Below are positions 4,733-30,848 of a stretch of 32,000 nt of DNA, one piece after another. A model generated the notes under the pieces. That model made no database searches and had not been told where the DNA came from. It was given only the letters and a program-made list of their open reading frames with translations. Within the stretch, counting starts at the first letter, position 1; each line of letters opens with the position of its first letter. Source of the DNA: an uncultured Bacteriovoracaceae bacterium (GTDB taxonomy: Bacteria; Bdellovibrionota; Bacteriovoracia; Bacteriovoracales; Bacteriovoracaceae); contig CAXGUD010000001.1 in assembly GCA_964012805.1 (NCBI GenBank), positions 822 to 32,821 of the forward strand, in the 5' to 3' direction. Both the position numbers and the translations under genes were made by a program.

Positions 4733-4754
4733 CCCTTACCTCCCTCTCCCTATT

Positions 4755-5042
4755 TTAACCCCAAAATAAAAGAAAAAAAGCAAAAATCAGACACACGACT
4801 CCTCCATTCAAAGGAGTTAAAGTTGTCCCGCCTAAAACCGCCATCATAATAAAGGCACTTCCCAAAAGGGAGATAAAAAACCTCTCACCTCTTGTCGTTT
4901 TCATGGGTAAAAAGCCCTTTGTCTTTTTAGTCGGGATCCTGACTTCCAAAACAGTAAGGCAGATGAGCGAAAGAAATATAAGACCAAAAAAGATGGCAGT
5001 TGGAGTCGTCCAGGCCATCCACTCTAAGTTAATCCCTTCCAT
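4755..5042 (-). CDS. DUF2160-like small membrane protein of glycerol ABC transporter loci
   Basis: 95 aa, hydrophobic; starts 3 bp after the upstream permease stop; same small membrane protein is found in Rhizobium-type glp ABC loci. Confidence 0.75.
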   Translation of the reverse strand: MEGINLEWMAWTTPTAIFFGLIFLSLICLTVLEVRIPTKKTKGFLPMKTTRGERFFISLLGSAFIMMAVLGGTTLTPLNGGVVCLIFAFFLLFWG

Positions 5043-5045
5043 TGA

Positions 5046-9599: not shown

Positions 9600-9631
9600 A
9601 TACTGTGCCCTAGAAAATTAACCCTACTGTT

Positions 9632-10714: not shown

Positions 10715-10897
10715 GATTGGAATTTCCTTTACTAGAATTAAGGACCTTTAGTCCCTAAAACAATTTCATTAACTTGAGTTAAATTGAGTAAGGGCGAGTT
10801 TAGAACAAGAGTCTTATCATTTCAAGAAATCCTATCAGGAATAATAAATCCTTGATCAAGAAAAGTTAAACGCGCTGTCTCCTAAGCAGTGGGGACC

Positions 10898-11263
10898 TCA
10901 GAGAGAGTCCAAAAGCTCATAGAGTTCTTCGAGAATTAAAGGCTTTTGAAGAAAGAAACTTAAAGACAAAGAAGATGCCAAAGCTTTTACTTCTTTAATA
11001 TTTCCTGAGATAAAGACAATGATAGTATTTTGATTCGGCCCATCAGAGTTCCTGATATCCACGGCCAAATTTGCACCTTTAATCACAGGCATCCTGTGGT
11101 CTAAAAAAATAACATCAAAAGCTTCATTATCAAGAAGATCTTTATATTGGTCTTTTTCACTAGCGATAGAAACTTCATATGAAGATCTGAGTTCAAGACC
11201 TTGCTTAAGCATTTCAAGAATTTCTTCTTCGTCGTCAATAATAAGTATCTTTTTTTTGCCCAT
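10898..11263 (-). CDS. stand-alone response-regulator receiver domain protein
   Basis: ILIIDDEEE, VIFLDHRMP phospho-acceptor Asp, FISG, LQKP Lys. No output domain. The supplied ORF starts at 11272 (GTG); the ATG at 11263 has an AGGTGG site at good spacing. Confidence 0.88.
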   Translation of the reverse strand: MGKKKILIIDDEEEILEMLKQGLELRSSYEVSIASEKDQYKDLLDNEAFDVIFLDHRMPVIKGANLAVDIRNSDGPNQNTIIVFISGNIKEVKALASSLSLSFFLQKPLILEELYELLDSL

Positions 11264-11491
11264 AAAACCCACCTGGCTTACCTGACTACACCGTTTAAGT
11301 AATAAACCGATTTCTTTTTCAATTTTACCTGAAATCCAAAAAGATTGAAGGCGTTATCTTTCCATTGTGATAGAAAAGATCACAGAACTCATTTAGAAAA
11401 CTGTTTTAGTCTCTTTCTTTCTATGGCCACCAAATAAAAACCTTTAATAATTTTATTTAAAGTCGACAAGAACTAACAATAAGGAATTGTT

Positions 11492-11515
11492 TTTTAGAAG
11501 TTTTAATTTCTAAAA
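11492..11515. repeat. perfect 8-bp inverted repeat TTTTAGAA-N8-TTCTAAAA in the 5' region of the motor-like cluster
   Basis: Direct read of sequence; lies just upstream of the first gene's probable ATG (11544). Confidence 0.6.
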
Positions 11516-11543
11516 CCGGAGTTTGAAGGAAAATAAAAAAAAA

Positions 11544-12587
11544 ATGCATAGAACAATTAAATCATTCACCCTTATTGTATTTCTTATCCTGATCATACTA
11601 CAAGACAGATCAAAAGCCGCATCTGAGAAGACCGCTTCCCCCGTTTATAATACTTTTGAATACTTGCTAGGAGAATTCAAAGCAGATATTGATGGTCTTG
11701 CAAAAAAAGTTAGTAATTCGATCCTTCTTAAAGTTTCAGTTGAAGGAGATATAGATAAAACCTTTAATAGGCATGTTAGGCGGTCTTTAGAGTCTTTTCG
11801 CATTAAAGGAAAAAAGTTTCGCTTCCGCCAATGTAAGGCCTGTACTTCTTTAAGGGCCGAAACGATAGGCAATCAAATATACCTTAAAAAGGGAATTACA
11901 GAATTTAAGGATATTCAGGAAATCACTCAAAAACTTGGAACAATGTCTTACGCGGAAGCAAGTGTCGAGGATACCGGAACAAGGCTCATTTTTAAGGTTT
12001 CTTTTTTTAGCTCGCTCAATGCAGAACTTCTTTGGAGTAAAACCTATCAAATGAGGCTCGTCAGCTTTGGTGACCTCAGTTTTACAGCAGCGCTTGAAGT
12101 TAAACAGGCCTTTGGAAGAAATAGCCCTCTTCTTTTTAATGCCTCTTTTGGTGAAAAAATCTATGGTATAGGCCTTATTGACCTCAATGTCACACTAGGC
12201 TTAGCATCAGGGAAAGATAACCCCGAGCAAAAAAAAGGTAGTAGTATCGTCCTTAACCCCAATGAAGATTATGTGAACAGTTACTTTGCTATAGGGCCAA
12301 GGTTAACAGTTAACATTAACGAATTTTTTCAAATGTATTCAAACTGGGGAAGTCAGTTTATCTATGCAGGAACCGGTTTTTGCCAATACACTCGATTGAA
12401 AACAAGCAACGATACAGAAGCACCTACTGGAAAATGGGGCCTTCATATTGAAGCGGGGTATGGAGTTCATCTGGGTAGAACTTTTCTCATCACAGCAGGT
12501 TTAAACAAAGGTCTTTTTCTCAGTTCAGATGACAAAGATCAGGATTATCCTCTTCTCTTTAATATAGGATTTGGATTTAGGTTTTAA
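11544..12587 (+). CDS. signal-peptide protein with N-terminal periplasmic domain and probable C-terminal outer-membrane beta-barrel
   Basis: Supplied ORF begins at 11523 (TTG); ATG at 11544 starts MHRTIKSFTLIVFLILIILQDRSKAA. C-terminal half has repeated amphipathic strand-like segments and ends GFGFRF. Confidence 0.7.
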   Translation: MHRTIKSFTLIVFLILIILQDRSKAASEKTASPVYNTFEYLLGEFKADIDGLAKKVSNSILLKVSVEGDIDKTFNRHVRRSLESFRIKGKKFRFRQCKACTSLRAETIGNQIYLKKGITEFKDIQEITQKLGTMSYAEASVEDTGTRLIFKVSFFSSLNAELLWSKTYQMRLVSFGDLSFTAALEVKQAFGRNSPLLFNASFGEKIYGIGLIDLNVTLGLASGKDNPEQKKGSSIVLNPNEDYVNSYFAIGPRLTVNINEFFQMYSNWGSQFIYAGTGFCQYTRLKTSNDTEAPTGKWGLHIEAGYGVHLGRTFLITAGLNKGLFLSSDDKDQDYPLLFNIGFGFRF

Positions 12588-13377: not shown

Positions 13378-15186
13378 ATGAGGCTTAATTTAAAATTAAA
13401 ATATTTATGGATCTTCTTAATTTTTCTTCTCTTCAGCGGGCCTAAAGGTGCTTTTACACAAGAAGCATCTCTTATGAGGAACCAACTTCAGCTCGAAAGT
13501 GAACTTAATTCACAAGTAAGAAAAGAGCTCCTCCAAGTTTTCAAAAAAGAGGAATTTATTATCTCTTCCTCTATAAAATTAAAAAGTTACAGAGTTACAA
13601 AAGTTCTGGAACAAGAAAGCCAAATAAACAAACAACCTAAAAAAAAGGGAAGTGAGCAAGAAATACTGCCAGGTTTTTACGATTCTGCCCCCTCAATAAC
13701 AAACGAAATGGCCAATGAACAAGTAAGAAAAGTATATGGCCACGAAACAAAAACTGAATTAGAAAAGGCCCAATTGAAGATTTTAGTCGATGAAAGCGTA
13801 ACAGATACCAGGCTTGACGCAGCAAAAAAATTACTCACTCAAAGGTTAACAAATAGCTTTGGAGGAAAAATTGACATCCAATTCCTCCCAGCTGTCCTCA
13901 AATCAAAATTAGCACCAGTTCCTTTTTACCAAGAGTTTACTGGATACCTAAAGGATAATATGGGACTGCTTCTCCTGTTTTTTTGTTCACTTATCTTTCT
14001 TTTTGTCCTTGCTTCTTTAATCAACCGTATAAGGCCAAAAGATCAAATGCCTCCGGTTTGGTCATATAACCCACCTATGACACCCCCAATAGATTCAATG
14101 GGAGGCTTTGGTGGCCCCCCTCCTCTTCCTGGAGGAGGTCAAAGACCTCATATAGAATTAGGCCCCAACACTCTTCCCCTACCAGGAAGTCATGAAAAAG
14201 AACTTGATGAATTAGAAATAGACAAAAAAATAAACAAATTTGTTAGCGTTATATGCAAAGAACCTTTTGTCACAAGAAAGTTTTTTCAGACCCTTGATAG
14301 AGATAATCAAAAAAGCTTTATGGCGCTTTTTACAAGTAAGAGTTCAAAAGTGGCGCTTGGAGAATTTTTTGGAGAAACACTTTTAGGACCAGAAGCAGGC
14401 GATATTGCCAGTCTGGACAATGAGATGGACCTTGAGGAAAAAGCCGAATTTTTAGAGTTTATCTCTCTAGAACATGATAGATTTAAAAACCTTATGGCCA
14501 TCAAAAATGGCCAGCGTTTTTCTATTTTATCTCTTATGAATGATAAGGAACTTCAATACGTCTTTTCGAATGAGTCCCCCAGAGATATTGCTTTTCTCCT
14601 TCACTTTCTTCCAAGAGACTCCATTTCTGGTGTTTTAAGCAGGATGGATAGCGAACAGAAAACTGAAATTATTTTAAACTTGAAAAAGTCCTCTCAATTA
14701 TCAGGAGAAGATGAAAGAGAAATTGAAGAAAGGCTTAATAAAAAAATTAATACTTTTGCCTCAAGCGCTTTTTCAACTTTCATGAGTGAAGACTCCTTAG
14801 TTGGAAGTATCTTAGATGAGTCCGATAATGCCCAAGAAATTTTAGATAGAATATCAAGTAAAGATAAAAACCTTGCTAAAAGCTTCAAATCCCACTCATT
14901 AAACTTTGATTATTTTATAGAAAATGAATTGGACTCTCTTGCAAGAATTTTTGAAACAATACCAAATGAAATGTTGGCCTTAAGCCTTATCGAATATGGT
15001 AAAGATGAAAGATCAACAATTTTAGAAGCACTTTCCCCCACAAGGAGAAAAGTCATCGCTTCTTCAATGCTCATGAACTCAAAAGCATCACACGAAGAAA
15101 TAAGAAAAGCCAAATTAGAGTCATCTAAGATTGCTCGGAAAACCTATCAATTATTACAAAGAAATAAAATGGGTAAGGCATCATGA
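13378..15186 (+). CDS. membrane-anchored FliG-like protein: signal/periplasmic region, TM helix, Pro/Gly-rich linker, FliG-like cytoplasmic domains
   Basis: N-terminal hydrophobic segment, TM MGLLLLFFCSLIFLFVLASLI, linker with GGFGGPPPLPGGG; NESPRDIAFLLHFLPRDSISGVLSRMDSEQKTEIILNL resembles FliG middle domain; SILDESDNAQEILDRISSKDKNLAKSF...LALSLIEYGKDERSTILEALSPTRRKVIAS...IARKTYQLLQ resembles FliG C-terminal domain. Confidence 0.72.
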   Translation: MRLNLKLKYLWIFLIFLLFSGPKGAFTQEASLMRNQLQLESELNSQVRKELLQVFKKEEFIISSSIKLKSYRVTKVLEQESQINKQPKKKGSEQEILPGFYDSAPSITNEMANEQVRKVYGHETKTELEKAQLKILVDESVTDTRLDAAKKLLTQRLTNSFGGKIDIQFLPAVLKSKLAPVPFYQEFTGYLKDNMGLLLLFFCSLIFLFVLASLINRIRPKDQMPPVWSYNPPMTPPIDSMGGFGGPPPLPGGGQRPHIELGPNTLPLPGSHEKELDELEIDKKINKFVSVICKEPFVTRKFFQTLDRDNQKSFMALFTSKSSKVALGEFFGETLLGPEAGDIASLDNEMDLEEKAEFLEFISLEHDRFKNLMAIKNGQRFSILSLMNDKELQYVFSNESPRDIAFLLHFLPRDSISGVLSRMDSEQKTEIILNLKKSSQLSGEDEREIEERLNKKINTFASSAFSTFMSEDSLVGSILDESDNAQEILDRISSKDKNLAKSFKSHSLNFDYFIENELDSLARIFETIPNEMLALSLIEYGKDERSTILEALSPTRRKVIASSMLMNSKASHEEIRKAKLESSKIARKTYQLLQRNKMGKAS

Positions 15187-15240
15187 ATGAAGATAAGGAA
15201 AAAAATAGTTTTATAAAACCAAACAAAATAAAGGTCTAAA

Positions 15241-15990
15241 ATGCTAGCGAGATTACTACAACTCCCCTTCAGAATTTTGGGAATAGCCTTGATTTTGGCC
15301 GGGACCTATATTTGTGTTAAGTATGATGTGAAGCCTTCTTATTACGGTATTTACCATCCACCATCTCTTGCCCTTGTTGGTTTAGTTTTGGCCGGTGTGG
15401 CGATGTTCAGCTATAAAATTCAAACACTCTTTAGTATTTTCTTAGGTTGCTTAGGTGAATCACCCAGTTCATGCCGCTCCTATTTTCAAATCATGGAAAA
15501 AAAACTACCGGAACTTATTGACGTTTACTTTAGTGAAGGGCCCTCGGCACTAACCTCTCGCCTCCCTAACGGGTCAGAAAAAGAGCTTTGGCTTCAGGTC
15601 TTTACTAAGTTAGAAGCACAAATTTCACCAAGTGATTTGATTCAGGTTATGAATAAATATGCTTCTGACTATAAATCAAGAATCAATAGAGAAGTTTTAG
15701 TCGCCGGAACGGTAGGAAGTTTGGCCCCAACAATAGGTGTTTTAGGTACAGTTTTGGGCCTTATAAAACTTTTAGGGAACCTTCAGGACTTTTCAAGCTT
15801 GGGTTCTAATATGGCCTTGGCACTGATAACAACTCTTTATGGAATTGTTTTCAATGCGCTTCTCATAACTCCCGTTGTAGGTCGGTTAGAGGAATATAGG
15901 ACCTTTAGGCTTCAAATTTTTAGACAGATAATTTATTGGCTTGAATGCCTGGAACAAAAAAGAGCAGGCAGTGTTATAGAGCATAAATAG
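15241..15990 (+). CDS. MotA-like stator protein
   Basis: IYHPPSLALVGLVLAG, then GTVGSLAPTIGVLGTVLGLIKLLGNLQDFSSLGSNMALALITTLYGIVFNALLITPVVGRLEE, matching the conserved MotA TM3-TM4 pattern. Confidence 0.88.
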   Translation: MLARLLQLPFRILGIALILAGTYICVKYDVKPSYYGIYHPPSLALVGLVLAGVAMFSYKIQTLFSIFLGCLGESPSSCRSYFQIMEKKLPELIDVYFSEGPSALTSRLPNGSEKELWLQVFTKLEAQISPSDLIQVMNKYASDYKSRINREVLVAGTVGSLAPTIGVLGTVLGLIKLLGNLQDFSSLGSNMALALITTLYGIVFNALLITPVVGRLEEYRTFRLQIFRQIIYWLECLEQKRAGSVIEHK

Positions 15991-16020
15991 TCTATAAAAA
16001 ATAAGGAGTCACAACTCCAG

Positions 16021-16713
16021 ATGACCAAAAAACGTCATAAGGAAAAAGCTTCCTCTTTCGATGATGACCAAGAAAGCGGAGCTGAGAGCATTTCTAAATC
16101 TAGCTGGGCCGCATCCTATGGTGATGTTGTTAGTGTTCTTTTGTGTTTTTTTATCATCCTTTCAACAACAAGTAATATGAATTCAAAAAATGTTGAAAAA
16201 ATGAAAGAGGCCATGAGTGATGAAACACCTCAAGGTAAAAAGAAAAAGCTCAAATCAAAAGACGTCATGAAAAAACTCAAAGAGATAATTAAAATAAAAA
16301 ATCTTCAGAAGGATATCACTCTTGTAGAGGAACTTGACGGAACAAAGCTCATTATTAATGATCGTCTTCTTTTTTCTTCAGGAGGCGCAAAAATCATGCC
16401 TGAAAACATCGGAGAAATAAGAGAAATTATAAGAAGCTTTATCGACCTACCACCTCACTACCGGTTTAAAGTCGAAGGCCATACAGATGATGTTCCCATC
16501 AAAAGTAGAAAATTTCCTACAAATTGGCACCTCTCAGTTTCAAGGGCCCTTTCTCTTTTACAAGTTTTTCTTCAAGAAGGTATTTATGAAAAAAGACTAA
16601 GCTTCCATGGCTTTGCTTCATTCCAACCTCTTGCAAAAACTGAGGGGCTTCAGGGTGAAGACCTTAGAAAGGCCAGAAAAAAGAACAGAAGAGTTGTCAT
16701 TAAGGTTTACTGA
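16021..16713 (+). CDS. MotB-like stator protein with OmpA-like peptidoglycan-binding domain
   Basis: WAASYGDVVSVLLCFFIILST (plug/TM with ion-binding Asp35, codon 16123-16125) and RFKVEGHTDDVPIKSRKFPTNWHLSVSRALSLLQVFL. Confidence 0.9.
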   Translation: MTKKRHKEKASSFDDDQESGAESISKSSWAASYGDVVSVLLCFFIILSTTSNMNSKNVEKMKEAMSDETPQGKKKKLKSKDVMKKLKEIIKIKNLQKDITLVEELDGTKLIINDRLLFSSGGAKIMPENIGEIREIIRSFIDLPPHYRFKVEGHTDDVPIKSRKFPTNWHLSVSRALSLLQVFLQEGIYEKRLSFHGFASFQPLAKTEGLQGEDLRKARKKNRRVVIKVY

Positions 16714-16766
16714 CTCAACAATCATCCATTAAAATAACTTATCAACAAAGAAGATGAATTTATTTT

Positions 16767-17855
16767 ATGAAAAAGAAACACCCATTTTTTTTGGGACTTT
16801 GTATTAAGGTCCTTCTTTTTACCATAATTTCTCCTTTCGGGGAAGCTGCAACGAACTTTTTTAAAATCACAAACATTAATTCAGGGGGTGATCCACTTGT
16901 TAACGCTGCACTTTTGGAATTTGAATCCAATGTCAATCAAAATCTTCCTTCAATAGAAAGTACTGACCTGACAACAGATACAGTCAACTCCAATATCATC
17001 TCTAATAAGGGACTTGGAGTTGACTATACAAACTCCATGAAACGTTTTTTGGTAGGCTGGTCTCAAAGTGCTTCAGTTAATGTCGGAAGCAGTGAAAATA
17101 TCCTAAGTGGGGCCAAAACCGTAAAAGGTTTTGGAATGGCAACCCAATTTAACTTAGGGTTTAACCTTCAACCTTTAAAGAAACGTAAATTGATCAACCT
17201 ACCTTCATTTTGGGGTCTCGACCTTAATAACTCAAAAATTTTTATGGGCCTAATGACCGGACGAACAAGCCAAAAAGTAAGTGGTTATACACTCGGCTTC
17301 GAAATTTTTACCGCCAACCTCCGTATTATGACGAAGCTCAAAAAAGCTGAAGACTTCAAAAGCTACTTTTTTAAGTGGGGTGGTATTGACTTAAGCACAG
17401 GGCTCGAAACTAATAAAACAGCCCTCTCAGTCAGTGTGCCAAGAAATGAGTCAATTACGGCTTCCAATTCATACAAAACAACTTTTGACGGCATAGTTGG
17501 CTTTAAGGTCGATTCCTCAAGTTTTAGTATTCCTCTTGAAGTCTCAGCCAGTGCAACCTTCTTTTCTTTTATCGATTTGTTTTGGGGCCTTGGTACTGAT
17601 TTAAACTTTGGGTATGGAAGGGGCTCGAGTTTTTCAGACTCTAATGTCTTGATCTTTGATAACTTAAATAACCAAGTTGGAACTGCTGACGCCGAGTTCA
17701 ATGTAGGCTCAACAGGGTCCCCCTCAATCTTGAATGCTCGGTGGTTTGCTGGGACCCAAGTTAACCTATGGAAAATGAAAGTTTCACTTCAAGCACAACA
17801 TTCTATGATCCACGGGATTTGGGGCTTTGGAGGTAATTTTAACTTCATTTTTTAA
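16767..17855 (+). CDS. probable outer-membrane beta-barrel protein
   Basis: Signal peptide, Gly/aromatic alternating strands, C-terminus GGNFNFIF ending in Phe. Confidence 0.65.
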   Translation: MKKKHPFFLGLCIKVLLFTIISPFGEAATNFFKITNINSGGDPLVNAALLEFESNVNQNLPSIESTDLTTDTVNSNIISNKGLGVDYTNSMKRFLVGWSQSASVNVGSSENILSGAKTVKGFGMATQFNLGFNLQPLKKRKLINLPSFWGLDLNNSKIFMGLMTGRTSQKVSGYTLGFEIFTANLRIMTKLKKAEDFKSYFFKWGGIDLSTGLETNKTALSVSVPRNESITASNSYKTTFDGIVGFKVDSSSFSIPLEVSASATFFSFIDLFWGLGTDLNFGYGRGSSFSDSNVLIFDNLNNQVGTADAEFNVGSTGSPSILNARWFAGTQVNLWKMKVSLQAQHSMIHGIWGFGGNFNFIF

Positions 17856-17872: not shown

Positions 17873-20467
17873 TTAGATACTTGGAATAATTAAAGAAAAG
17901 GTTGTCCCCTCTCCTTCCTTCGTATCAATTTCGATTCTGCCGCCTAGACTTTCAATATTTTTAAGGACGACATCCATTCCCACTCCCCTACCGGATATCT
18001 CAGTTACATTACTCGCCGTCGAAAAGCCTGGTTTAAAAATGAGTTCTGTCTTTTCTTTTTCATTTAAAAAGTCTTTCGTGGAATCTATGAGACCTTTTTC
18101 TATGGCCTTATTATAAACATCTTCACCATTGATTCCCCGGCCATCATCTTTCAAAGTTAGAATAATATCAGGTCTTTTACGGGTTAGACTAACTTCTATA
18201 TTTCCACTTTTTTCAATTCCATGAGCTATACTATTATTGATAAGATGGATAACAGATTCCCTTATAATTTTTGCATTTTTTCTGTCAAAAAGGGCCTCTA
18301 CTCCACTTACTTTAAAAGATACATTTTTTTCAAGTTTTCTTGCTTCTCTAAAAACTGTTGGCTTTAACTTCAACAATTCTCCTTTTAATTCACTCATCAT
18401 GAGGTTTGCAAAAATTCTTAAAACGGCTTTTGCAGAAGTCATCTCTTTAGCTGAATGAAGAGCTACTTCAAATTTATTTTTTGGGACCTCGATAAACTCC
18501 TCAGACCCATCACTTTCAGAGGAAAGAAACTCTTCCCCAAAAACTTCTTGCGCGCTCTCTTTATAAAAAGTAAGGAGTTCCGTGAGCATTTCTTTAGTCC
18601 GTTCTATCCCATTTTTTTCATAATCAGTTTCAAATCCATGAACTTTATTACTTAATGACTCCAAATTAAAGAACCTTGAACTTCCTTTAATTGTGTGCAG
18701 ACTTCTTTTGACCCCTTCCTCATCACCCCACTCTTCCAATGTTTCAAAAACCTCTTTAATAAAAACTCTAAATTCACTTTTAGTATTGGAAACAATTTCC
18801 TGGAGGACTTGAATCCTGTATTCAGCTTTTTCCTGAGAAACTCTAACAGCTTCTTTTAACTTTTCCTCCTCAGTTATGTCCTCAATAATAAACATAATTC
18901 TTCTTACGATTTCTTGATCATCAATAATAGGACTTAATTGAATTTTTACAATCTTCTCATCTCCGTTTTCCATTTTTAAATTAGTCATCTTGGGAATAAC
19001 ATCTTGCATACTATCAAATTGGAAAATATCCATGTTGATAGAAATACTAAAGACAAAGGCCATTTTTTCTCTAAATTCTTGATTAAAAAGCTCCGCACAT
19101 ACATTTTTCCCTACAATATCTACACCAAATATTTCCGCAGAGTATTTTGAGACAGGAAAAATTACTTTATAAGATTCATCCACAGAAAAAACAGCTTGGC
19201 GCATATTATTCAATATATCTTTTGTCTCATTCAATGAGGAAAAGAGTTCATTTGTCCTTGCTTTAACTTTATTTTCCAAACCCAAATTTGTTTTTTCAAT
19301 TTTACGATAGAGCAATTTAAGTTTATGGTTAGCATCATTTAACTCTTCCGCCCTAATTGCGATGTCATCCCTTTGTAATTTTATATACTCTGCAAAACCA
19401 AAGGACAGAACAATAAGCTTGAGAGAAGTACCTAATAAAAGAGAGTTATCAATGAAGAGGTAAGGTCCAAGAACTTTAAATTTAAATAATATCTGGACAA
19501 TAACAAACAGAACAAAAATATTAAGCGATATGAAAAAATATTTAGCAGTAACACTACCCTTCCTTAATTCATCGTAGGAAAACCAGAATGAAAAAATTAT
19601 GATGGTTGAAAAATAAAAATAAGAAAAGCCTAGGCCGGCCGTAATGGGAGTAAAGAGGCAAACAAAGGTCAGGACGAGTCCTCCCTTTATAAAATTGTTG
19701 CAAAAGTGCAGTAGTTTTTCTCTATCCAGATTTATATAACTTTTTCCAAAAATCAATAAAGTGACGCCAGTTAGGGCAACTAAGCTATTTTGGCCTTGAC
19801 CAGATAACCAGGAACCTTTAAGAAAAGAAACAAATACCATAAGCGTTAATGATAAAACAAAGGCATAAAGAGAAAAAAGAATATAGTTAATATAATTGGA
19901 GGTTAAATAATTGAAAATATTATAAATTATTAATAAAATAATAACTCCATAAAAAAATGAATATAAAGTTTTTTCTTCAAATTGTTTTTCATAGAAAGAA
20001 TCAATCTTTAAAATAGAGATGGGCAACTTTACTTTTTCTTTAAACCTATTACTTTTAAGAACTTGGATAAGCACTTCACTTGTATTTGATTTAATTTTAA
20101 AACTAGGATGTCTATTTTTTAGCCTGAAAAGCATAGAATTATCAGGAGACCAAACCTCAGTTCCTCCTGAAGCTGACTTATAGTAGAATTTAAAGTTCTG
20201 AAAATAGCTATTGTTTATAGTAATAACCTTTTCGAAAGGCCGCTTGGAAATTTTAACCTTTATGTATAGGTCTTTTTTAAAATCATTTAAGATATAGGAG
20301 TCTTCGATGGATTTAACTTTTTGAATATTATTTGGTTTAATAAGTCCTTTGACACCTTCTTCTAACGAACCCAAATATTGAAAAGCCTCGACTTCATATC
20401 CAGAACCAGAAAAACTATTTCCCATGAATAAAGAAATAAAAAATAGAAATGTTATTACTGTTCTCAA
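17873..20467 (-). CDS. hybrid sensor kinase: 7TMR-DISM-like sensor and TM region, PAS, Hpt, CheA-type HATPase; no CheW domain
   Basis: Seven hydrophobic helices after an extracytoplasmic domain; PAS-like NMRQAVFSVDESYKVIFPVS...ITEEEKLKEA; Hpt motif RSLHTIKGSSRFF; N-box IIRESVIHLINNSIAHGIE, DDGRGI, GRGVGMDVV, GEGTTFSLIIP. Confidence 0.85.
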   Translation of the reverse strand: MRTVITFLFFISLFMGNSFSGSGYEVEAFQYLGSLEEGVKGLIKPNNIQKVKSIEDSYILNDFKKDLYIKVKISKRPFEKVITINNSYFQNFKFYYKSASGGTEVWSPDNSMLFRLKNRHPSFKIKSNTSEVLIQVLKSNRFKEKVKLPISILKIDSFYEKQFEEKTLYSFFYGVIILLIIYNIFNYLTSNYINYILFSLYAFVLSLTLMVFVSFLKGSWLSGQGQNSLVALTGVTLLIFGKSYINLDREKLLHFCNNFIKGGLVLTFVCLFTPITAGLGFSYFYFSTIIIFSFWFSYDELRKGSVTAKYFFISLNIFVLFVIVQILFKFKVLGPYLFIDNSLLLGTSLKLIVLSFGFAEYIKLQRDDIAIRAEELNDANHKLKLLYRKIEKTNLGLENKVKARTNELFSSLNETKDILNNMRQAVFSVDESYKVIFPVSKYSAEIFGVDIVGKNVCAELFNQEFREKMAFVFSISINMDIFQFDSMQDVIPKMTNLKMENGDEKIVKIQLSPIIDDQEIVRRIMFIIEDITEEEKLKEAVRVSQEKAEYRIQVLQEIVSNTKSEFRVFIKEVFETLEEWGDEEGVKRSLHTIKGSSRFFNLESLSNKVHGFETDYEKNGIERTKEMLTELLTFYKESAQEVFGEEFLSSESDGSEEFIEVPKNKFEVALHSAKEMTSAKAVLRIFANLMMSELKGELLKLKPTVFREARKLEKNVSFKVSGVEALFDRKNAKIIRESVIHLINNSIAHGIEKSGNIEVSLTRKRPDIILTLKDDGRGINGEDVYNKAIEKGLIDSTKDFLNEKEKTELIFKPGFSTASNVTEISGRGVGMDVVLKNIESLGGRIEIDTKEGEGTTFSLIIPSI

Positions 20468-26106: not shown

Positions 26107-28200
26107 ATGATAACAAATATAATAAGAACAACTTTTATCAATGCTACGTTAATTATCTTTTGCAACATCATAGTAAATAGCTCTAAAGCAAATGATAAAT
26201 TATTTTTCGAATGGGATTATGAGAACCATCCTCAAAATATGGTAGACCGCTATACCACTGTTTTTGAAGAGTTACCTCTTGAAGGTGAAATTCAAAATCA
26301 ACCCTGGAGTGGAGATTATTGGCCTACTCAAAAAGGAGGGATCTCTTACCGTTGGTATGTCCGTAAAGCAATCCCACACGATAGCATTGAGAGGTTTGGT
26401 TATAAATTTCTAGACATGAAAAAATATCAAAAAGACTTAAAAAATAAAAAGCACCTTATAAACAGAAAAACAAAGCTGGAATTTATTAGAGATCACGGAC
26501 CAAGAGAAGGTATTAAAAAATATGAAGATTATATAAAAACAGCACCAGAAATTGTGATTGATCCCGCAGAGCTTTCTCCTGCTGAAAAGTATGATCTTTT
26601 AATGGGAGATAAAAACTGGTCTCTTACAAGAAGAGAAAGAAAACGATCAGATATTTACGACTTAATTAAAGCCCTCAAAAAAGACCCTAAAGCCAATAGA
26701 GAGAGCTTTATTCCTAGTTGGTGGGGTCTATGCCACGCATGGGCTCCGGCCACAATTCTTTATGAAAACCCAAACCCAATAGGATATTCCAATCCATTTT
26801 CAAGAGAGCCTGCCCCCATAAAGTTAAAGAATCCTTCTGGAATTGAAGTTCCCTTTGGAAGTGCCGATATCAAAGCACTTCTTACAGTCCATCTAGACAT
26901 CGCTGAGAGCACCTCGGGTTCGACAATCTTTTTAGGAAGCCGCTGTAACCTGGAATTAGAGCAGCACTTCCAATCATTCAGCCGAGGAGAAATTAGTGAA
27001 ATAGAACTCCGTGGGCTCCTTGAAAGAGAAGGCTGTAATGACACAAATGCCGGTAGTTTTCATATTACCCTAACAAACCTCATAGGCCACTATAAGACTG
27101 GTTTTATTATGGATCATGATAGAGGAAGCGAAGTCTGGAATCAAGGAATAGTATCATATAAGATTTTAGAAAATATTGATAAGCCTGTTCCAGAAAAGTT
27201 TAAGAAAAATGTTTCAAGAATTGTGTCCGTAAAAAACGAGGTCACATGGATATCAGAAATTAATCAGAGCTGGAAAAAAGTTAATCTTGCTGGAAGAAAT
27301 GGTTTTCAAAAAAGCGTTTATAATTATGAGCTTTACCTCAATCCACAAAATGAAATTATTGGAGGGACCTGGCTAGATCAAACCAACTTATCAAATAAAA
27401 ATTGGAAAGATAGACCTGATTTCCTTTGGATGAGACCAAAAATAAGTTTTTCGAAAAGTATACCTGGGCTCAGTAAAATTTATTCTAAATCAATAGGAAA
27501 AAAAGAGAAGTTAAAACCTAAAAAAGCCTGGAAGAAGGCCTTCAAAAAAATAAAATTATCTAACAAGTTTATCAGAAATACAAAAGAGTTTACCAAGAAG
27601 AAAAAAGAAGAAAAAAAGAAATACCTTCAATCATTAAGGAAAAAGTCAATAGATGCTTTTAAAAGAAGAGTCGATTTAAACAAAAAATTAAAAAAGGATT
27701 TAAAAAAGAAATTTGGTAATATTCTTTCAAAGGTAAGAAGAAGTATTTTAAAGAGAGAAAGGTCTATTATAAAACGAAGAAGTCACTTAGAAGAAAAAGA
27801 TGGAAAGGTTCTATGCCACGTCCTTTATCACACTAGTGAAGAGGATAATTATCAGGATTTCAAAGCCGAAGGGGAAGATATTCAAAGTTCCTGCAAAGCC
27901 GCCTTACAAAAGTGCGAAAATTATAAGTTTTCAAATAAAATTAAAAACGCCAAGGAGTATTGTTTAAAAGGAAAAAGTAAAGACTACCTCTATACATGTA
28001 CATACACACTCTTTGCAAACCCAGACCCAATAAACTGGCTCATTAAAAAGACCAGAACTGGCAGAAAGATGGGTACTTTTAAACACAAGGCACTTATTGA
28101 AGATGTCGCCTGTTTAAGACCAAAAAAGAACTGCGAAAAAAGAAGATTTTGGAAAAGAACCTGTAAAAAAGAGGTCAAGCGCCCTCTTATCAGGCTTTAA
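26107..28200 (+). CDS. secreted transglutaminase-elicitor-like protein with Lys/Arg-rich region and Cys-containing C-terminal domain
   Basis: SWWGLCHAWAPATIL (Cys209, codon 26731-26733), FGSADIKALLTVHLD, GSFHITLTNLIGHYKTGFIMDHDRGSEVWNQGIVSYKI match the TGase elicitor (GP42/Pep-13 family) pattern as I recall it. Confidence 0.72.
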   Translation: MITNIIRTTFINATLIIFCNIIVNSSKANDKLFFEWDYENHPQNMVDRYTTVFEELPLEGEIQNQPWSGDYWPTQKGGISYRWYVRKAIPHDSIERFGYKFLDMKKYQKDLKNKKHLINRKTKLEFIRDHGPREGIKKYEDYIKTAPEIVIDPAELSPAEKYDLLMGDKNWSLTRRERKRSDIYDLIKALKKDPKANRESFIPSWWGLCHAWAPATILYENPNPIGYSNPFSREPAPIKLKNPSGIEVPFGSADIKALLTVHLDIAESTSGSTIFLGSRCNLELEQHFQSFSRGEISEIELRGLLEREGCNDTNAGSFHITLTNLIGHYKTGFIMDHDRGSEVWNQGIVSYKILENIDKPVPEKFKKNVSRIVSVKNEVTWISEINQSWKKVNLAGRNGFQKSVYNYELYLNPQNEIIGGTWLDQTNLSNKNWKDRPDFLWMRPKISFSKSIPGLSKIYSKSIGKKEKLKPKKAWKKAFKKIKLSNKFIRNTKEFTKKKKEEKKKYLQSLRKKSIDAFKRRVDLNKKLKKDLKKKFGNILSKVRRSILKRERSIIKRRSHLEEKDGKVLCHVLYHTSEEDNYQDFKAEGEDIQSSCKAALQKCENYKFSNKIKNAKEYCLKGKSKDYLYTCTYTLFANPDPINWLIKKTRTGRKMGTFKHKALIEDVACLRPKKNCEKRRFWKRTCKKEVKRPLIRL

Positions 28201-28547
28201 GAGACCGGATTCCATTATTTCGTGCCAAAAAATAAATATTTCAATGATTTTTATTGCCTTTTAAGCTTCTAAAGGTCCCTTTAAGGGGTTAATTATACTA
28301 ATCAGCAGGTTTTAGCAAAGAGTTAAATATACTTTATTGAGTTATTTAATGGAGCTGCCTAACAGGCCATTTGTATTTAATCGAGGACAACTTTCTTTTT
28401 TGTAAGCTTTTTTCAAACTGCACCAATAATGCACTTTCTTTTCAATTTCTGCACCTTCTTTTTCCCAATTTTTTTTTTATATAACAATTTAGAATTATCT
28501 CATAGGGTGAGTAATACGTTTAGAGCCCTTGAAGGAGGTACTTTAAA

Positions 28548-28751
28548 ATGCAATATAAACTTGAAACTATTTTGAAAAAATACAACATTGATGACATCAC
28601 ACATGGTATTGCCTACAATATTTCTGATCTTTCTCAGATCAAATATTGGGATAAGTCAGGAAAAGAGATTGTTGTCTCTTTTAATACCAGTGAACTATCT
28701 CCAGGTATTTTTTGTTTTAGAATTGCTGAGGGATCAATAACGATTCTTTAA
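28548..28751 (+). CDS. small hypothetical protein (67 aa)
   Basis: Strong RBS AAGGAGG 9-10 nt upstream of ATG. Confidence 0.65.
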   Translation: MQYKLETILKKYNIDDITHGIAYNISDLSQIKYWDKSGKEIVVSFNTSELSPGIFCFRIAEGSITIL

Positions 28752-28766
28752 TGTTGAGAGGTTTTG

Positions 28767-28949
28767 ATGAAAGGCGAAAATAAGTGCGAGCCTAAAAAAG
28801 TCGTTATTTATTATGAGATTGAAGGCGAGGAAGGCTCAACTAAAAAAATGACTTGTAATATTGTTGGTGAGTTAGATATGGATTTTATTATGTTCGCCTT
28901 ACGAAAGTGGAGCAACAAGTCCGTCTATAAAAGTCATGAATTCCTATAG
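28767..28949 (+). CDS. small acidic hypothetical protein (60 aa)
   Basis: Adjacent to previous small gene; GAGAGG before ATG at 28767 (supplied ORF begins at an upstream TTG). Confidence 0.55.
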   Translation: MKGENKCEPKKVVIYYEIEGEEGSTKKMTCNIVGELDMDFIMFALRKWSNKSVYKSHEFL

Positions 28950-29027: not shown

Positions 29028-30848
29028 TTGGCGGTAGATAGAAGTAATCAAAAAAAAATTTCCTTTGAAGAACTCATAAGCAATCACGGAATGGCTTCAA
29101 TTCTTGCTGTTGATGACAATCAAAAAAATATACAAGTTATTGGTCAACTTCTAAAACATGCCACTTGGTGTTCACTATCTGTTTGTTTAGAAAGTCAAAA
29201 AGCTATAAAGTTGGCTGCAAAAATCCGTCCTGACATTATTCTTTTAGACCTTCATATGCCTAAACTTAATGGTATTGATGTCTTGAAAAAATTAAATGAG
29301 ATGGAAATATTGGAAACAAGTACAGTTATATTTTTAACGGCTGACAGAGAAATTGAAAACCGTCTGGAAGGTCTATCACTTGGCTGCGCAGACTATATTC
29401 AAAAGCCATTTAATTCCGATGAATTTATTATTAAATTGAAGTACCACATAAAGATGAGGTATTATGAAAAAGAAATACTTAATACACTAAAGAACACGAA
29501 TAACCTACTGGATAATATTAATCAAGCCATTTTTTCTATTAATAAAAATGGTGAAATAATTAATCCTATCTCTAATCATTCAAAAGAAATTTTTGGTTCG
29601 AACATTGAACCTGGCATTCATATAAATTCATTCCTCCAAGGTAAATTTCAATTTTCAGAAGAGGAAATTAGATCTTTTTTAGAGCAACTTTTAAGTTCCT
29701 TTAAACAATCAAAAATAAATTGGACCGAGATAGAAAGAAGCTTTCCCAAAAAATTTTTATTAACTAGAAGTAGAGAAAAAATAAAAATACTTAAAATAAA
29801 CTACTCATCTGTTTGGAATGGTGAACAGCTTGAAAACATTATCTTTTATTTTAACGACATAACAGACAAAGAAAAGGTAGAAGATGAATCGACTAAATAT
29901 AGCCTTAGTCAAATTTCATCCCTAAGCAGCATTAACTTAGAAACCCTAAGAAGCTGGACAAAGAGGTTTCATATTAAAGGCGATTTTTCTCATGAAGAAA
30001 GTAAATTTCGCTTTTCAGGGAAAGAACTCAAAAAATTTCAGCTTTATAAGGAACTAATAGAAAAAGGGGAAAATATTGGTGCATTAGTTAAATTGAGTTA
30101 TAAGGAACTTATAAAAAGAAAAAATTTTTTGACTGAAGAAAAATCCAGACCAATAAAAATGAATGAAAGCTCAATTAAAAGTTATGATCTAGTTAACACC
30201 CTTCACTTTTTTATGACACAAAAAAAATTTGATATTTTCCAAAGAGACTTTAATAAGCTTCCCACTATTTACAATCAAAGAGAGTTAGTTTTTGATATCA
30301 TTCTTCCTTTTCTAAAATTAAGGAATAAGGATAGGTTTTGGAATAATTTTTCAGATGCAAAAAAAGACTTTTTAAATTTCTACCTTATAAAAAAAATAAT
30401 AGAGTTTGCTGTACCTAAAAAAAGTATTCCCATAAATGAGGTTAAAAAAATATTTTTACTGGACTTTTTTCCCTCAAACACATCTTTAACTTGTCCCATT
30501 CTTTTACTTTTAGCTTCTTACCATAATTTTGAAACTTATTATATAAAAGAAAATATACTTAACCCTTCTTTTTTAAAAATATTGAAAGAAGAAAAAGATT
30601 CAATAATTTTTCTTAATTTAGATAAGAAAGGATCTTTTGATGAAACAGAGTTCAATGCAATAAACAAAGACATCCTTAACTCGTCTGCGTTAAAAAAGGC
30701 AGAAGTAATTCTCTTCAATAACCACCCCACAATCAAAATTGATAATGAAAAGAACCTTCACCTTAATGTTATTAATTCCTTTGAAGACGTTGACCAATTT
30801 TTTATAGACCTATCAAATGAAAAAGCGAAAATCAAAAGTGCAGCTTAG
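29028..30848 (+). CDS. regulator: receiver, PAS, MerR-type HTH, degenerate B12-binding-like domain
   Basis: Receiver (SILAVDDN, IILLDLHMP, FLTAD, IQKPF); PAS-like NINQAIFSINKNGEIINPIS...DITDKEKVED; MerR HTH YSLSQISSLSSINLETLRSWTKRF...KFRFSGKELKKFQLYKELIEKGENIGALVKLSYKEL; C-terminal region aligns in pattern with the CarH/LitR B12-binding module. Probable TTG start at 29028. Confidence 0.72.
   Translation: MAVDRSNQKKISFEELISNHGMASILAVDDNQKNIQVIGQLLKHATWCSLSVCLESQKAIKLAAKIRPDIILLDLHMPKLNGIDVLKKLNEMEILETSTVIFLTADREIENRLEGLSLGCADYIQKPFNSDEFIIKLKYHIKMRYYEKEILNTLKNTNNLLDNINQAIFSINKNGEIINPISNHSKEIFGSNIEPGIHINSFLQGKFQFSEEEIRSFLEQLLSSFKQSKINWTEIERSFPKKFLLTRSREKIKILKINYSSVWNGEQLENIIFYFNDITDKEKVEDESTKYSLSQISSLSSINLETLRSWTKRFHIKGDFSHEESKFRFSGKELKKFQLYKELIEKGENIGALVKLSYKELIKRKNFLTEEKSRPIKMNESSIKSYDLVNTLHFFMTQKKFDIFQRDFNKLPTIYNQRELVFDIILPFLKLRNKDRFWNNFSDAKKDFLNFYLIKKIIEFAVPKKSIPINEVKKIFLLDFFPSNTSLTCPILLLLASYHNFETYYIKENILNPSFLKILKEEKDSIIFLNLDKKGSFDETEFNAINKDILNSSALKKAEVILFNNHPTIKIDNEKNLHLNVINSFEDVDQFFIDLSNEKAKIKSAA

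What the first reader, a model, noticed from the sequence alone, without database searches (positions are those of the whole stretch)
29028..30848. Unusual regulator: receiver + PAS + MerR HTH + apparently B12-free CarH/LitR-like domain
After a receiver and a PAS-like domain the protein reads YSLSQISSLSSINLETLRSWTKRF...KFRFSGKELKKFQLYKELIEKGENIGALVKLSYKEL, which follows the MerR-type HTH of CarA/CarH/LitR regulators. The next region (NQRELVFDIILPFLKLRNKDRFWNNFSDAKKDFLNFYLI...DFFPSNTSLTCPILLLLASYHNFETYYIK) keeps the layout of their helical and Rossmann-like cobalamin modules. However, the W-x9-EH position reads W-x9-FL and the axial-His position (ExHxxG) reads SLTCP, so cobalamin binding seems lost. 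Fusion to receiver and PAS input suggests phospho- or ligand-control replaced light/B12 control. The middle PAS region also resembles that of the kinase at 17873-20467 (NMRQAVFSVDESYKVIFPVS vs NINQAIFSINKNGEIINPIS).
Basis: partly seen in the sequence, partly recalled or inferred. Interest (0 to 1): 0.76.

Follow-up and report, generated by a model that had tools for sequence, protein, structure and literature searches.

The report
Response regulator with B12-less CarH module
This gene from a marine predatory-bacterium lineage encodes a two-component response regulator whose DNA-binding half descends from the vitamin-B12 light sensor CarH/LitR but has lost every B12-binding signature, so a former photoreceptor module now appears to work under phosphorylation control.

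Summary
ORF 29028-30848 (606 aa) has a catalytically complete receiver, a divergent PAS domain shared with the window's 7TMR-DISM kinase, and a MerR HTH closest to CarA/LitR/CarH. Its tail has the four-helix-bundle plus Rossmann layout of the CarH cobalamin-binding domain. Three results support tail homology. A tail-only profile retrieves MerR/B12-binding proteins. hhalign against canonical relatives gives 98.6% probability, E 6.5e-16. The top 23 Foldseek PDB hits are all Thermus CarH.

The B12 signature is gone: W131->R436, E141-H142->K446-D447, H177->T485, GG->NN. Only 5 of 27 signature positions survive.

The fusion is rare. About a dozen proteins in three clades were found among 5.8 billion, all from marine Bdellovibrionota (Bacteriovoracales/Halobacteriovoraceae), and all are annotated only as "response regulator".

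Two new leads emerged. A conserved 67-aa orphan protein accompanies two of the three clades. Three conserved RCACY direct repeats (spacing 11 and 20 nt) lie upstream of it, resembling CarH-type operators.

B12-free LitR classes, B12-independent CarA and REC-MerR regulators are already known. This is therefore a new variant of a known kind. The mechanism (phosphorylation replacing B12 as the switch) is inferred, not shown.

The parts
29028..30848 (+). Regulator gene, 606 aa with a TTG start. An alternative ATG lies at 29091 (M22).
   Evidence: Homologs conserve residues upstream of M22. A GGGGG Shine-Dalgarno-like run ends 6 nt before the TTG.
29094..29441 (+). Receiver (REC) domain, residues 23-138. 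The acidic pair D29/D30, phospho-acceptor D74, T104 and K126 are all present.
   Evidence: Pfam E 1e-22. These residues are invariant columns and were read directly from the sequence. The domain superposes on CheY-like receiver structures at TM about 0.87.
29442..29495 (+). Long connecting helix (residues about 139-156) between REC and PAS.
   Evidence: AF2 model helix 130-155. It is 88-94% identical within the clade.
29496..29867 (+). Divergent PAS-like domain, residues about 157-280. It has no conserved Cys or His that would suggest a flavin or heme cofactor.
   Evidence: PAS_9 at E 2e-4, below threshold; 6 of 10 members hit PAS_9; PDB 3mxq at 2e-4. Homologous to the kinase PAS region, E 5e-10. 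The model shows a beta-sheet/helix PAS-like pattern.
29895..30101 (+). MerR-type winged HTH, residues about 290-358. The recognition helix reads ETLRSWTKRF, where the family has RxWERRY.
   Evidence: The domain is 78-86% identical within the clade.
30180..30413 (+). Helical bundle, residues about 385-462, equivalent to the CarH four-helix bundle. CarH W131, E141 and H142 correspond to R436, K446 and D447.
30414..30845 (+). Rossmann-like alpha/beta module, residues about 463-606, equivalent to the CarH B12-binding domain. E175, H177 and G180 correspond to S483, T485 and T488. GG corresponds to N563-N564.
28419..28455 (+). Candidate operator. It consists of three direct repeats, TGCACC, TGCACT and TGCACC (core RCACY), with starts spaced 11 and 20 nt.
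   Evidence: The pattern is unique in the window, with 0 of 100 shuffles matching. It is conserved at orthologous sites in L002-L004 and, as ACACC/ACACC/GCACC with the same spacing, in L009. An analogous GTGCA x3 lies upstream of a stand-alone CarH-like gene in L008.
28490..28495 (+). Conserved TAnAAT, a possible -10 element, 39 nt downstream of the start of the third repeat.
   Evidence: Alignment. The L009 equivalent TAAAAT lies 41 nt downstream. This is an inference only.
28548..28751 (+). sORF1, a 67-aa orphan protein. It is a conserved neighbour of the regulator in two of the three clades.
   Evidence: 94% identical in L002-L004, about 40% in L001, L006 and L007, and also present in L009. 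The family has 18 members, all from the same lineage.
28764..28949 (+). sORF2, about 59-61 aa, conserved only in the window clade.
   Evidence: 77% identical in L002-L004 and 49% in L009.
17873..20467 (-). 7TMR-DISM / PAS-like / Hpt / HATPase_c kinase. It shares the PAS-like domain and is a possible phosphodonor.
   Evidence: It is syntenic in L002. A 7TMR-DISM hybrid kinase also lies next to the third-clade regulator in L010. Partnership is inferred, not shown.

Best explanation
The gene encodes a phosphorylation-controlled transcription factor of the LitR/CarH lineage.

SHOWN:
- An N-terminal receiver with all catalytic residues, and a divergent PAS domain, are fused upstream of a complete CarH-type unit (MerR HTH, four-helix bundle, Rossmann module).
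- The cobalamin-contact signatures of that unit have been replaced.
- The tail is nevertheless under purifying selection.

INFERRED:
- The former cobalamin-binding module no longer binds B12. It serves as the oligomerisation scaffold, as in B12-independent CarA dimers.
- Phosphorylation of D74, transmitted through the long helix and the PAS domain, takes over the role AdoB12 and light play in CarH. That role is to switch the assembly state or geometry that lets several HTH domains engage tandem direct repeats.
- The likely target is the RCACY x3 site upstream of the sORF1-sORF2-regulator gene string, which would make the unit autoregulated.
- The phosphodonor may be the 7TMR-DISM kinase that carries the same PAS-like domain.
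For: Architecture.

HTH subtype: the family profile's best solved matches are CarA, LitR and CarH.

Tail homology:
- A tail-only profile without the HTH, searched against 1.84 billion representatives, returns 33 proteins. Of the 27 scanned, 25 have MerR_1, 12 have B12-binding and 9 have B12-binding_2.
- hhalign of REC-fused tails against only the canonical-motif stand-alone relatives gives 98.6% probability, E 6.5e-16, over 211 columns.
- That canonical set hits CarH/LitR at 4e-24, the CarH CBD alone at 2e-10, and MetH and corrinoid proteins.
- The AF2 model of the C-terminal half (pLDDT 84.6) has all of its top 23 Foldseek PDB hits in TtCarH, best E 1e-9 over about 315 columns. The CBD alone reaches TM up to 0.70.

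Signature loss: (5 of 27 positions kept). The axial position varies as T/K/Q/H among close homologs, so it is unconstrained.

Selection on the tail: the bundle is 71/70/56% and the Rossmann module 59/54/45% identical to P0002/P0003/P0004.

All three REC-fused clades lack the axial His, while 10 of 24 stand-alone relatives keep it.

Operator lead. CarH-family proteins bind 11-bp tandem direct repeats, and CarA is a B12-independent dimer (PMC9304148).

Operon-like layout: sORF1, sORF2 and the regulator are co-directional with gaps of 12 and 78 nt, and no terminator is predicted.
Against: There is no experimental evidence of any kind.

Loss of B12 binding is inferred from motifs. Some corrinoid proteins bind cobalamin without a His ligand (my own knowledge). 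P0004 has a His at the axial column, and the P0141 clade keeps Glu-His in the bundle.

The recognition helix deviates from RxWERRY (RSWTKRF), so DNA specificity, and even DNA binding, is unproven.

The repeat pattern was defined post hoc from the same sequences. The repeats lie about 40-70 nt upstream of the putative -10, which fits activation as well as repression. No such repeats were found in the clade-ii loci.

The kinase is 8.5 kb away on the other strand. Clade-ii loci carry a single-domain REC gene and different kinases instead.

Inter-domain geometry in the full model is unreliable (pTM 0.40).
Confidence: 0.6

Rival explanations
1. The tail still binds a corrinoid or another tetrapyrrole in a His-off mode. 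The protein would then integrate light or cofactor status with phosphorylation, as a dual-input photoreceptor response regulator.
For: The complete bundle plus Rossmann fold is retained and is under purifying selection. Clade ii has a strictly conserved ENP(Y/F/H)WELEV loop at the former His site, which suggests a functional pocket. The P0141 clade retains Glu-His in the bundle, and P0004 has a His at the axial column. His-off corrinoid binding is known in other protein families (my own knowledge).
Against: Only 5 of 27 canonical signature positions remain, and none is a cofactor contact. GG has become NN and ExHxxG has become SNTSLT. The axial column varies T/K/Q/H among 54-70%-identical homologs, so it is unconstrained. 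No cobalamin uptake or biosynthesis genes appear in the 32-kb window. LitR classes II-V are reported or inferred to lack a B12-binding domain or the ability to bind B12 (PMC9758184).
Confidence: 0.1
2. The PAS domain is the real sensor, binding a small ligand. The receiver would be a secondary or modulatory input, so the protein would act essentially as a one-component ligand-responsive MerR-type regulator.
For: The PAS domain sits directly before the HTH. The same PAS-like domain occurs in the 7TMR-DISM kinase and in the REC-PAS-Hpt-HATPase proteins (P0007), which suggests a shared signal.
Against: No cofactor- or ligand-binding signature is conserved. The invariant columns are L, N, Q, F, S, G, P, D and T, with no Cys or His. 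The PAS domain is one of the less conserved domains (63/66/52%), whereas REC is the most conserved (85/85/70%) and is catalytically intact. PAS domains in such positions often serve only as dimerisation or transmission modules (my own knowledge).
Confidence: 0.15
3. The MerR-CarH-like half no longer binds DNA. The protein would be a phospho-regulated protein-protein interaction hub, for example sequestering the 67-aa protein or another factor.
For: The recognition helix deviates from RxWERRY at three positions. The small partner-like protein is genomically linked in two clades.
Against: The HTH is the second most conserved domain (82/86/78%) and matches MerR/CarA profiles over its whole length. 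Clade ii keeps a canonical LRTWERR(Y/H) helix. A conserved direct-repeat site sits beside the gene.
Confidence: 0.1

Closest known systems
CarH / class I LitR (Thermus thermophilus CarH, PDB 5C8D/5C8E; AdoB12-dependent photoreceptor repressor)
   Same: It has the same three-part unit: MerR winged HTH, four-helix bundle, five-stranded Rossmann module. CarH is the top structural match (E 1e-9, about 315 columns) and among the best sequence-profile matches for the HTH. The candidate operator consists of tandem direct repeats with 11-nt spacing, like CarH operators (PMC9304148).
   Different: Wx9EH and D/ExHxxG...GG are all replaced. The unit is preceded by about 290 residues of receiver plus PAS. 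The recognition helix is RSWTKRF rather than RxWERRY. There is no carotenoid or photolyase gene context.
CarA (Myxococcus xanthus, B12-independent CarH paralogue)
   Same: It is a CarH-fold regulator whose activity does not depend on B12. CarA is a constitutive dimer that binds cooperatively, and it is controlled by another input (the antirepressor CarS) rather than by the cofactor (PMC9304148). The HTH profile's best PDB hit is the CarA DBD 2jml.
   Different: CarA still keeps the classic B12-binding His motif and the Glu-His (PMC9304148), and this protein keeps neither. CarA has no receiver or PAS domain. No CarS homolog was detected: the sORF1 profile has no meaningful PDB sequence match.
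Class II-V LitR (for example Pseudomonas PplR/PmlR2, Burkholderia class III LitR)
   Same: These are LitR/CarH-family MerR regulators that lack B12-binding capacity and are controlled by other means, such as a partner LOV protein (PMC9758184).
   Different: Class II retains only the four-helix bundle, and classes III-V have unrelated C-termini (PMC9758184). Here both subdomains are retained. None of those classes is described with an N-terminal receiver or PAS. Different taxa are involved.
REC-MerR response regulators (a minor output class in Galperin's response-regulator classification, as cited in PMC2222644)
   Same: A receiver domain is fused to a MerR-type HTH output.
   Different: I could not access the primary classification paper, so I do not know whether any described member carries PAS and a CarH-type tail. 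In my searches the PAS + MerR + CarH-like-tail combination occurred only in this small Bdellovibrionota family.

Membership tests
LitR/CarH family (MerR-type regulators with a C-terminal cobalamin-binding domain) | MerR-type winged HTH of the CarA/CarH/LitR subtype | tested here: met
   The family profile's best PDB hits are 2jml CarA DBD (4.5e-6), 3whp LitR and 5c8d CarH (3e-4), ahead of TnrA/GlnR, BmrR and CueR. Pfam MerR_1 hits 6 of 6 members, best 1e-12.
LitR/CarH family | RxWERRY motif in the recognition helix (PMC9304148) | tested here: inconclusive
   The window clade reads R-S-W-T-K-R-F, keeping R, W and R, with E->T, R->K and Y->F. Clade ii reads R-T-W-E-R-R-Y/H, which is canonical.
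LitR/CarH family | Four-helix bundle plus Rossmann fold following the HTH | tested here: met
   hhalign gives 98.6% probability, E 6.5e-16, against canonical relatives. The top 23 Foldseek hits are TtCarH, with CBD TM up to 0.70. This rests on a predicted model, not an experimental structure.
LitR/CarH family | Wx9EH motif contacting the upper axial adenosyl group (defines bona fide CarH photoreceptors, PMC9304148) | tested here: not met
   The equivalent positions are R436, K446 and D447.
LitR/CarH family | D/ExHx2G/P...SxT/V...GG cobalamin-binding motif with the lower axial His | tested here: not met
   The motif reads S483-N-T485-S-L-T488, and GG has become N563-N564. Only 5 of 27 canonical signature positions are kept.
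LitR/CarH family | HTH at the N-terminus of a roughly 300-aa protein | tested here: not met
   The HTH starts at residue 290, after the REC and PAS domains.
LitR/CarH family | AdoB12 binding and light-dependent oligomerisation and DNA binding | not testable with these tools
   This needs purified protein, spectroscopy and SEC or EMSA.
LitR/CarH family | Operator made of 11-bp tandem direct repeats (PMC9304148) | tested here: inconclusive
   RCACY x3 with spacing 11 and 20 nt is unique in the window (0 of 100 shuffles) and conserved in orthologous loci. Binding has not been shown.
CarA-type B12-independent paralogues | Retains the classic B12-binding His motif and Glu-His but lacks the Trp; controlled by the CarS antirepressor (PMC9304148) | tested here: not met
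   Both the His motif and Glu-His are absent. No CarS-like sequence was detected for the neighbouring small proteins.
Two-component response regulators (CheY-like receiver) | Receiver fold with the acidic pair, phospho-acceptor Asp, Thr/Ser and Lys | tested here: met
   Pfam E 1e-22. D29, D30, D74, T104 and K126 are invariant. The domain superposes on receiver structures at TM about 0.87.
PAS domain superfamily | Match to PAS profiles and the PAS fold | tested here: inconclusive
   PAS_9 matches at E 2e-4, 22 bits against a cutoff of 27, covering profile positions 2-103. Six of 10 members hit PAS_9 (best 1e-6). PDB 3mxq matches at 2e-4. The results are consistent but below curated thresholds. 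The model's secondary structure is compatible.

The most novel reading that the evidence does not exclude
The degenerate cobalamin-binding domain has been converted into a phosphorylation-gated oligomerisation switch. Receiver phosphorylation would replace AdoB12 as the trigger that assembles CarH-like oligomers on tandem RCACY repeats. The co-inherited 67-aa orphan protein would be a dedicated partner, such as a CarS-like antirepressor or co-factor. Together they would form a lineage-specific three-part regulatory module in marine predatory bacteria.
Probability: 0.25. Interest if true: 0.7.

Novelty: new variant of a known kind. Interest (0 to 1): 0.5.

Why it matters
CarH is both a model for how a cofactor-binding enzyme module became a photoreceptor and a widely used optogenetic and biomaterial tool. 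This would be a natural case in which the same scaffold has lost the cofactor and been wired to a receiver and a PAS domain. It would show a further step in that module's evolution: cofactor enzyme, then photoreceptor, then phospho-controlled scaffold. It could also suggest how CarH-type assembly might be put under non-optical control.

The family also matters for annotation. These proteins are currently labelled only 'response regulator' or 'CheY-like', and their DNA-binding output goes unrecognised.

Finally, the finding gives an experimentally tractable unit in poorly studied marine Bacteriovoracales: the regulator, the conserved small protein, a candidate operator and a candidate 7TMR-DISM kinase.

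Tried and rejected
1. Default MAFFT alignments of the tails (A2, A3) put an 18-20-residue gap in the Rossmann region of clade ii and misaligned the motif loop. L-INS-i with more sequences and hhalign both gave gap-free, mutually consistent registers, so I used those.

2. The first hhalign (A3 vs A4) was partly circular because A4 contained family members P0122, P0123 and P0141. I repeated it against canonical stand-alone proteins only.

3. A direct phmmer search of the whole protein against PDB found only receiver domains. The single-sequence Pfam scan gave no PAS or B12 hit.

4. The full-length model's fold search was dominated by receiver hits, so I modelled the C-terminal half separately.

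6. A CarS-like identity for sORF1 found no support. There were no Pfam or NCBIfam hits. The PDB profile hits were repetitive WD40 designs with no passing stretch, which is an artefact.

7. The 58-aa ORF next to the third-clade regulator in L010 may be a remote sORF1 relative, but hhalign gave only E 0.0027 and 11% probability, which is inconclusive.

8. The promoter/terminator consensus scan gave fewer promoter-like hits than the shuffles and no terminators, so it was uninformative.

9. The generic repeat search found part of the TGCAC repeats (family D2). Their significance only became clear through cross-locus alignment.

The SignatureFinder CarH-mining paper does not mention receiver or PAS fusions. 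Phrase searches for REC-MerR or REC-PAS-MerR found nothing relevant.
Full report
**What is there**

A 100%-identical database entry (P0001, 585 aa) was called from the internal ATG at M22. However, residues 10-22 ('SFEELISNHG') are conserved in homologs, and a G-rich Shine-Dalgarno-like run ends 6 nt before the TTG. I therefore keep the long form.

The window is syntenic with TARA Oceans and other marine metagenome contigs. Every named relative comes from Bdellovibrionota: Bacteriovoracales, Halobacteriovoraceae or Bacteriovoracaceae.

**Domain by domain**

1. **Receiver.** Pfam Response_reg covers residues 25-136 at E 1e-22. The acidic pair D29/D30, the phospho-acceptor D74, T104 and K126 are invariant in the family. 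The modelled domain superposes on solved receivers at TM about 0.87. It has everything a phosphorylatable receiver needs.

2. **PAS-like domain.**
 - The whole protein gives no Pfam PAS hit. The isolated middle region matches PAS_9 over the full profile at E 2e-4 (22 bits, gathering score 27).
 - Six of 10 family members hit PAS_9 (best 1e-6), and some also hit PAS and PAS_4.
 - The family profile hits the solved sensor domain 3mxq at E 2e-4 over 122 residues.
BLASTP gives E 5e-10 for residues 142-290 against kinase residues 399-540. That stretch overlaps the kinase's own sub-threshold PAS_9 hit. The kinase is 7TMR-DISM_7TM + PAS_9 + Hpt + HATPase_c.
 - No Cys or His is conserved in this domain, so nothing points to a LOV or heme sensor.

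3. **MerR HTH.** The single sequence is borderline (21.2 bits against a 21.6 cutoff). A profile of the family's C-terminal halves finds CarA DBD 2jml (4.5e-6), Thermus LitR 3whp and CarH 5c8d (3e-4). These rank ahead of TnrA/GlnR, BmrR and CueR. The recognition helix reads RSWTKRF where the family motif is RxWERRY (PMC9304148). The sister clade keeps RTWERR(Y/H).

**The tail is a CarH-type cobalamin-binding domain by descent**

Three independent lines agree.

1. **Tail-only profile search.** A profile of the tail alone (residues 364-606, no HTH) was searched against 1.84 billion representative proteins and returned 33 hits. Most are proteins of about 300 aa that match from about residue 85 onward. 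Of the 27 scanned, 25 carry MerR_1, 12 carry Pfam B12-binding and 9 carry B12-binding_2.

2. **Non-circular profile-profile test.**
 - I aligned only the ten stand-alone relatives that keep canonical motifs (A11).
 - hhalign of the REC-fused tails against that set gives 98.6% probability and E 6.5e-16 over 211 columns.
 - A11 itself hits CarH/LitR at 4e-24 and the isolated CarH cobalamin-binding domain at 2e-10. It also hits methionine synthase, corrinoid proteins and ornithine aminomutase.

3. **Predicted fold.**
 - An AlphaFold2 model of the C-terminal half built with 32 sequences has pLDDT 84.6 and pTM 0.65.
 - Its top 23 Foldseek hits in the PDB are all Thermus CarH. Full-length chains align over about 315 columns (best E 1e-9), and the cobalamin-binding domain alone reaches TM up to 0.70.
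 - Other MerR-linked B12 domains follow (8jbs, photocobilin 8j2w).
 - Even the full-length model, where receiver hits dominate, recovers CarH at E 2.5e-8.

**The cobalamin signature is gone**

The L-INS-i alignment of 37 tails plus the CarH segment printed has no gaps in either motif region for the window protein and its close homologs. It agrees with hhalign. The PDB chain index is native numbering plus 20, because the chain's residue 21 is Met1.

| CarH residue (native numbering) | Window residue |
|---|---|
| W131 | R436 |
| E141-H142 | K446-D447 |
| E175 | S483 |
| H177 (lower axial ligand) | T485 |
| G180 | T488 |
| GG | N563-N564 |

Of 27 tail positions that are at least 90% identical among the canonical relatives, the window protein keeps 5, and none is a cofactor contact. 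CarH itself keeps 13.

The axial column reads T, K, Q and H in four homologs that are 54-70% identical, so it is unconstrained.

The sister clade has a strictly conserved ENP(Y/F/H)WELEV at that site, with His replaced by Trp. A third clade (P0141) keeps Glu-His but lacks the axial His.

The tail is not decaying. The bundle is 71/70/56% identical and the Rossmann module 59/54/45% identical to P0002/P0003/P0004. For comparison, REC is 85/85/70% and the HTH 82/86/78%.

**How common the architecture is**

A REC-less profile (PAS + HTH + tail) was searched against 5.8 billion proteins. It found only 10 proteins, all of them REC-containing members of this family.

Adding the representative search and the GTDB genome scan gives three clades:
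- the window clade (P0001-P0006, P0154, L009);
- clade ii (P0008, P0009, P0123, P0153, and the ORFs in L005-L007; one Bacteriovoracales genome has two paralogs);
- the P0141 clade (L010).

Sources label them only 'response regulator' or 'CheY-like chemotaxis protein'.

Two shorter entries (P0122, P0156) that look like REC-less versions sit on contigs of about 1.5 kb and may be truncated.

The REC-PAS module also occurs fused to a CheA-like Hpt-HATPase output in P0007. That protein is 36% identical to the window protein over REC-PAS and matches the window kinase at E 2e-48. REC-PAS is therefore a reusable input cassette in this lineage.

**Context and leads**

*Conserved small proteins.*
- Two small ORFs lie directly upstream and co-directional: sORF1 (28548-28751, 67 aa) and sORF2 (28764-28949).
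- sORF1 is 94% identical in L002-L004, more conserved than the regulator at 69%.
- sORF1 has about 40%-identical homologs next to clade-ii regulators in L001, L006 and L007. There it follows a single-domain receiver gene.
- The more distant ortholog locus L009 keeps the order TGase-elicitor, sORF1, sORF2, regulator, NUDIX.
- The sORF1 family has 18 members of about 67 aa, all from the same lineage. It has no Pfam, NCBIfam or PDB sequence match.

*Candidate operator.*
- In the otherwise diverged sORF1 upstream region, the best-conserved block holds three direct repeats: TGCACC, TGCACT and TGCACC at 28419, 28430 and 28450 (spacing 11 and 20 nt).
- TGCAC-N6-TGCAC occurs once in the window, and 0 of 100 shuffles produce a match.
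- L009 has ACACC, ACACC and GCACC with the same 11/20 spacing, followed by the same T-rich/CCCA tract and TAAAAT.
- The degenerate pattern RCACY-N6-RCACY-N15-RCACY is unique in the window (0 of 100 shuffles). In about 100 kb of fetched loci it occurs only at these orthologous sites.
- A stand-alone CarH-like gene in a Bacteriovoracaceae genome (L008, which retains 'AQEH') has GTGCA x3 (spacing 17 and 11 nt) ending about 15 nt before its start codon.
- CarH-family proteins are known to bind 11-bp tandem direct repeats (PMC9304148).
- The pattern was defined post hoc, and binding is untested.

**Most likely mechanism (inferred)**

D74 would be phosphorylated, possibly by the 7TMR-DISM kinase that shares the PAS-like domain. 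A 7TMR-DISM hybrid kinase also neighbours the third-clade regulator. The signal would pass through the long helix and the PAS domain. It would change how the CarH-like scaffold arranges its HTH domains on the RCACY repeats. That would control the sORF1-sORF2-regulator string.

This parallels CarA, which uses the same fold as a B12-independent dimerisation scaffold and is controlled by another input (PMC9304148). It also parallels class II LitR, which is controlled by a partner LOV protein (PMC9758184).

Rival explanations are given separately: residual His-off corrinoid binding, a PAS-ligand-driven one-component mode, and a non-DNA-binding hub. None is excluded, but each has evidence against it.

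**Comparison with what is known, and novelty**

B12-free LitR classes II-V (PMC9758184), B12-independent CarA (PMC9304148) and REC-MerR response regulators as a minor class (PMC2222644) are all on record.

The following did not turn up in my literature searches:
- a complete but cofactor-signature-free CarH unit placed behind a receiver and a PAS domain;
- its confinement to marine Bacteriovoracales;
- its linkage to an orphan 67-aa protein.

The claim of an undescribed architecture is therefore provisional.

My verdict is a new variant of a known kind. It is well supported as to what it is, and only inferred as to how it works.

Noticed in passing
window 28548-28751 and 28764-28949; L001 2844-3050; L006 3332-3535; L007 9656-9856 and 9919-10119; L009 8001-8201: An orphan 67-aa protein family (invariant G20, Y23, N24, W34, G38, E40, G53-I54, C56-F57, G62) is genomically linked to the regulator in two clades. 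It is more conserved than the regulator (94% against 69%). The family has 18 members, all from marine Bdellovibrionota, with no Pfam or PDB match. sORF2 is conserved only in the window clade.
   Followed up: partly
window 28419-28455; L002 7346-7382; L003 176-212; L004 76-112; L009 7834-7869: Three conserved direct repeats (RCACY, spacing 11 and 20 nt) lie upstream of sORF1. The arrangement is unique in the window and matched by 0 of 100 shuffles. It is a candidate operator of CarH direct-repeat type.
   Followed up: partly
L008 7928-7962 and 7977-8531: A stand-alone CarH-like gene in an uncultured Bacteriovoracaceae genome keeps the 'SIAQEH' motif. It has GTGCA x3 (spacing 17 and 11 nt) ending about 15 nt before its ATG, which looks like an autoregulatory operator. 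The gene runs off the contig end.
   Followed up: partly
P0007 / P0168 (Bdellovibrionota MAG), compared with window 17873-20467: The same REC + PAS-like cassette is fused to a CheA-like Hpt + HATPase_c output in other proteins (E 2e-48 to the window's 7TMR-DISM kinase). REC-PAS therefore seems to be a modular input unit combined with different outputs in this lineage.
   Followed up: partly
window 26107-28200; L001 5641-7335; L002 5019-7112; L009 3543-5494: A TGase_elicitor-family gene with a long lysine-rich, Cys-containing C-terminal extension is a neighbour of the regulator in both the window clade and clade ii.
   Followed up: no
window 13378-17855: An atypically long (602 aa) FliG-like protein (MgtE_N + FliG_M + FliG_C) is followed by a MotA/MotB pair and an unannotated 362-aa ORF. 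These sit directly beside the 7TMR-DISM kinase.
   Followed up: no
window 10898-11272 (-): A single-domain receiver gene lies next to an ABC transporter operon. Clade-ii regulator loci also carry a single-domain receiver immediately downstream of the regulator (L001 2438-2815, L006 2923-3282, L007 9275-9628).
   Followed up: no
P0004 and P0141 (alignment): P0004 (57% identical) has a His (KGHSLS) at the column of the CarH axial His. The P0141 clade retains Glu-His in the bundle but lacks the axial His. These may be chance or intermediate states in the loss of the cofactor site.
   Followed up: no
window 4001-12000: G+C is about 0.38-0.41 across the ABC-transporter/peptidase block, against 0.30-0.35 in most of the rest of the window.
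   Followed up: no
L009 8583-10320: The ortholog on the 224-kb 'pilon' contig is split into several frames, and the gene caller reports only small ORFs there. This is probably long-read indel error rather than a pseudogene.
   Followed up: no
L010 2547-5471: The third-clade regulator is flanked by a 7TMR-DISMED2 + 7TMR-DISM_7TM + HisKA + HATPase_c + REC hybrid kinase. This is a second association of the family with 7TMR-DISM sensors.
   Followed up: no
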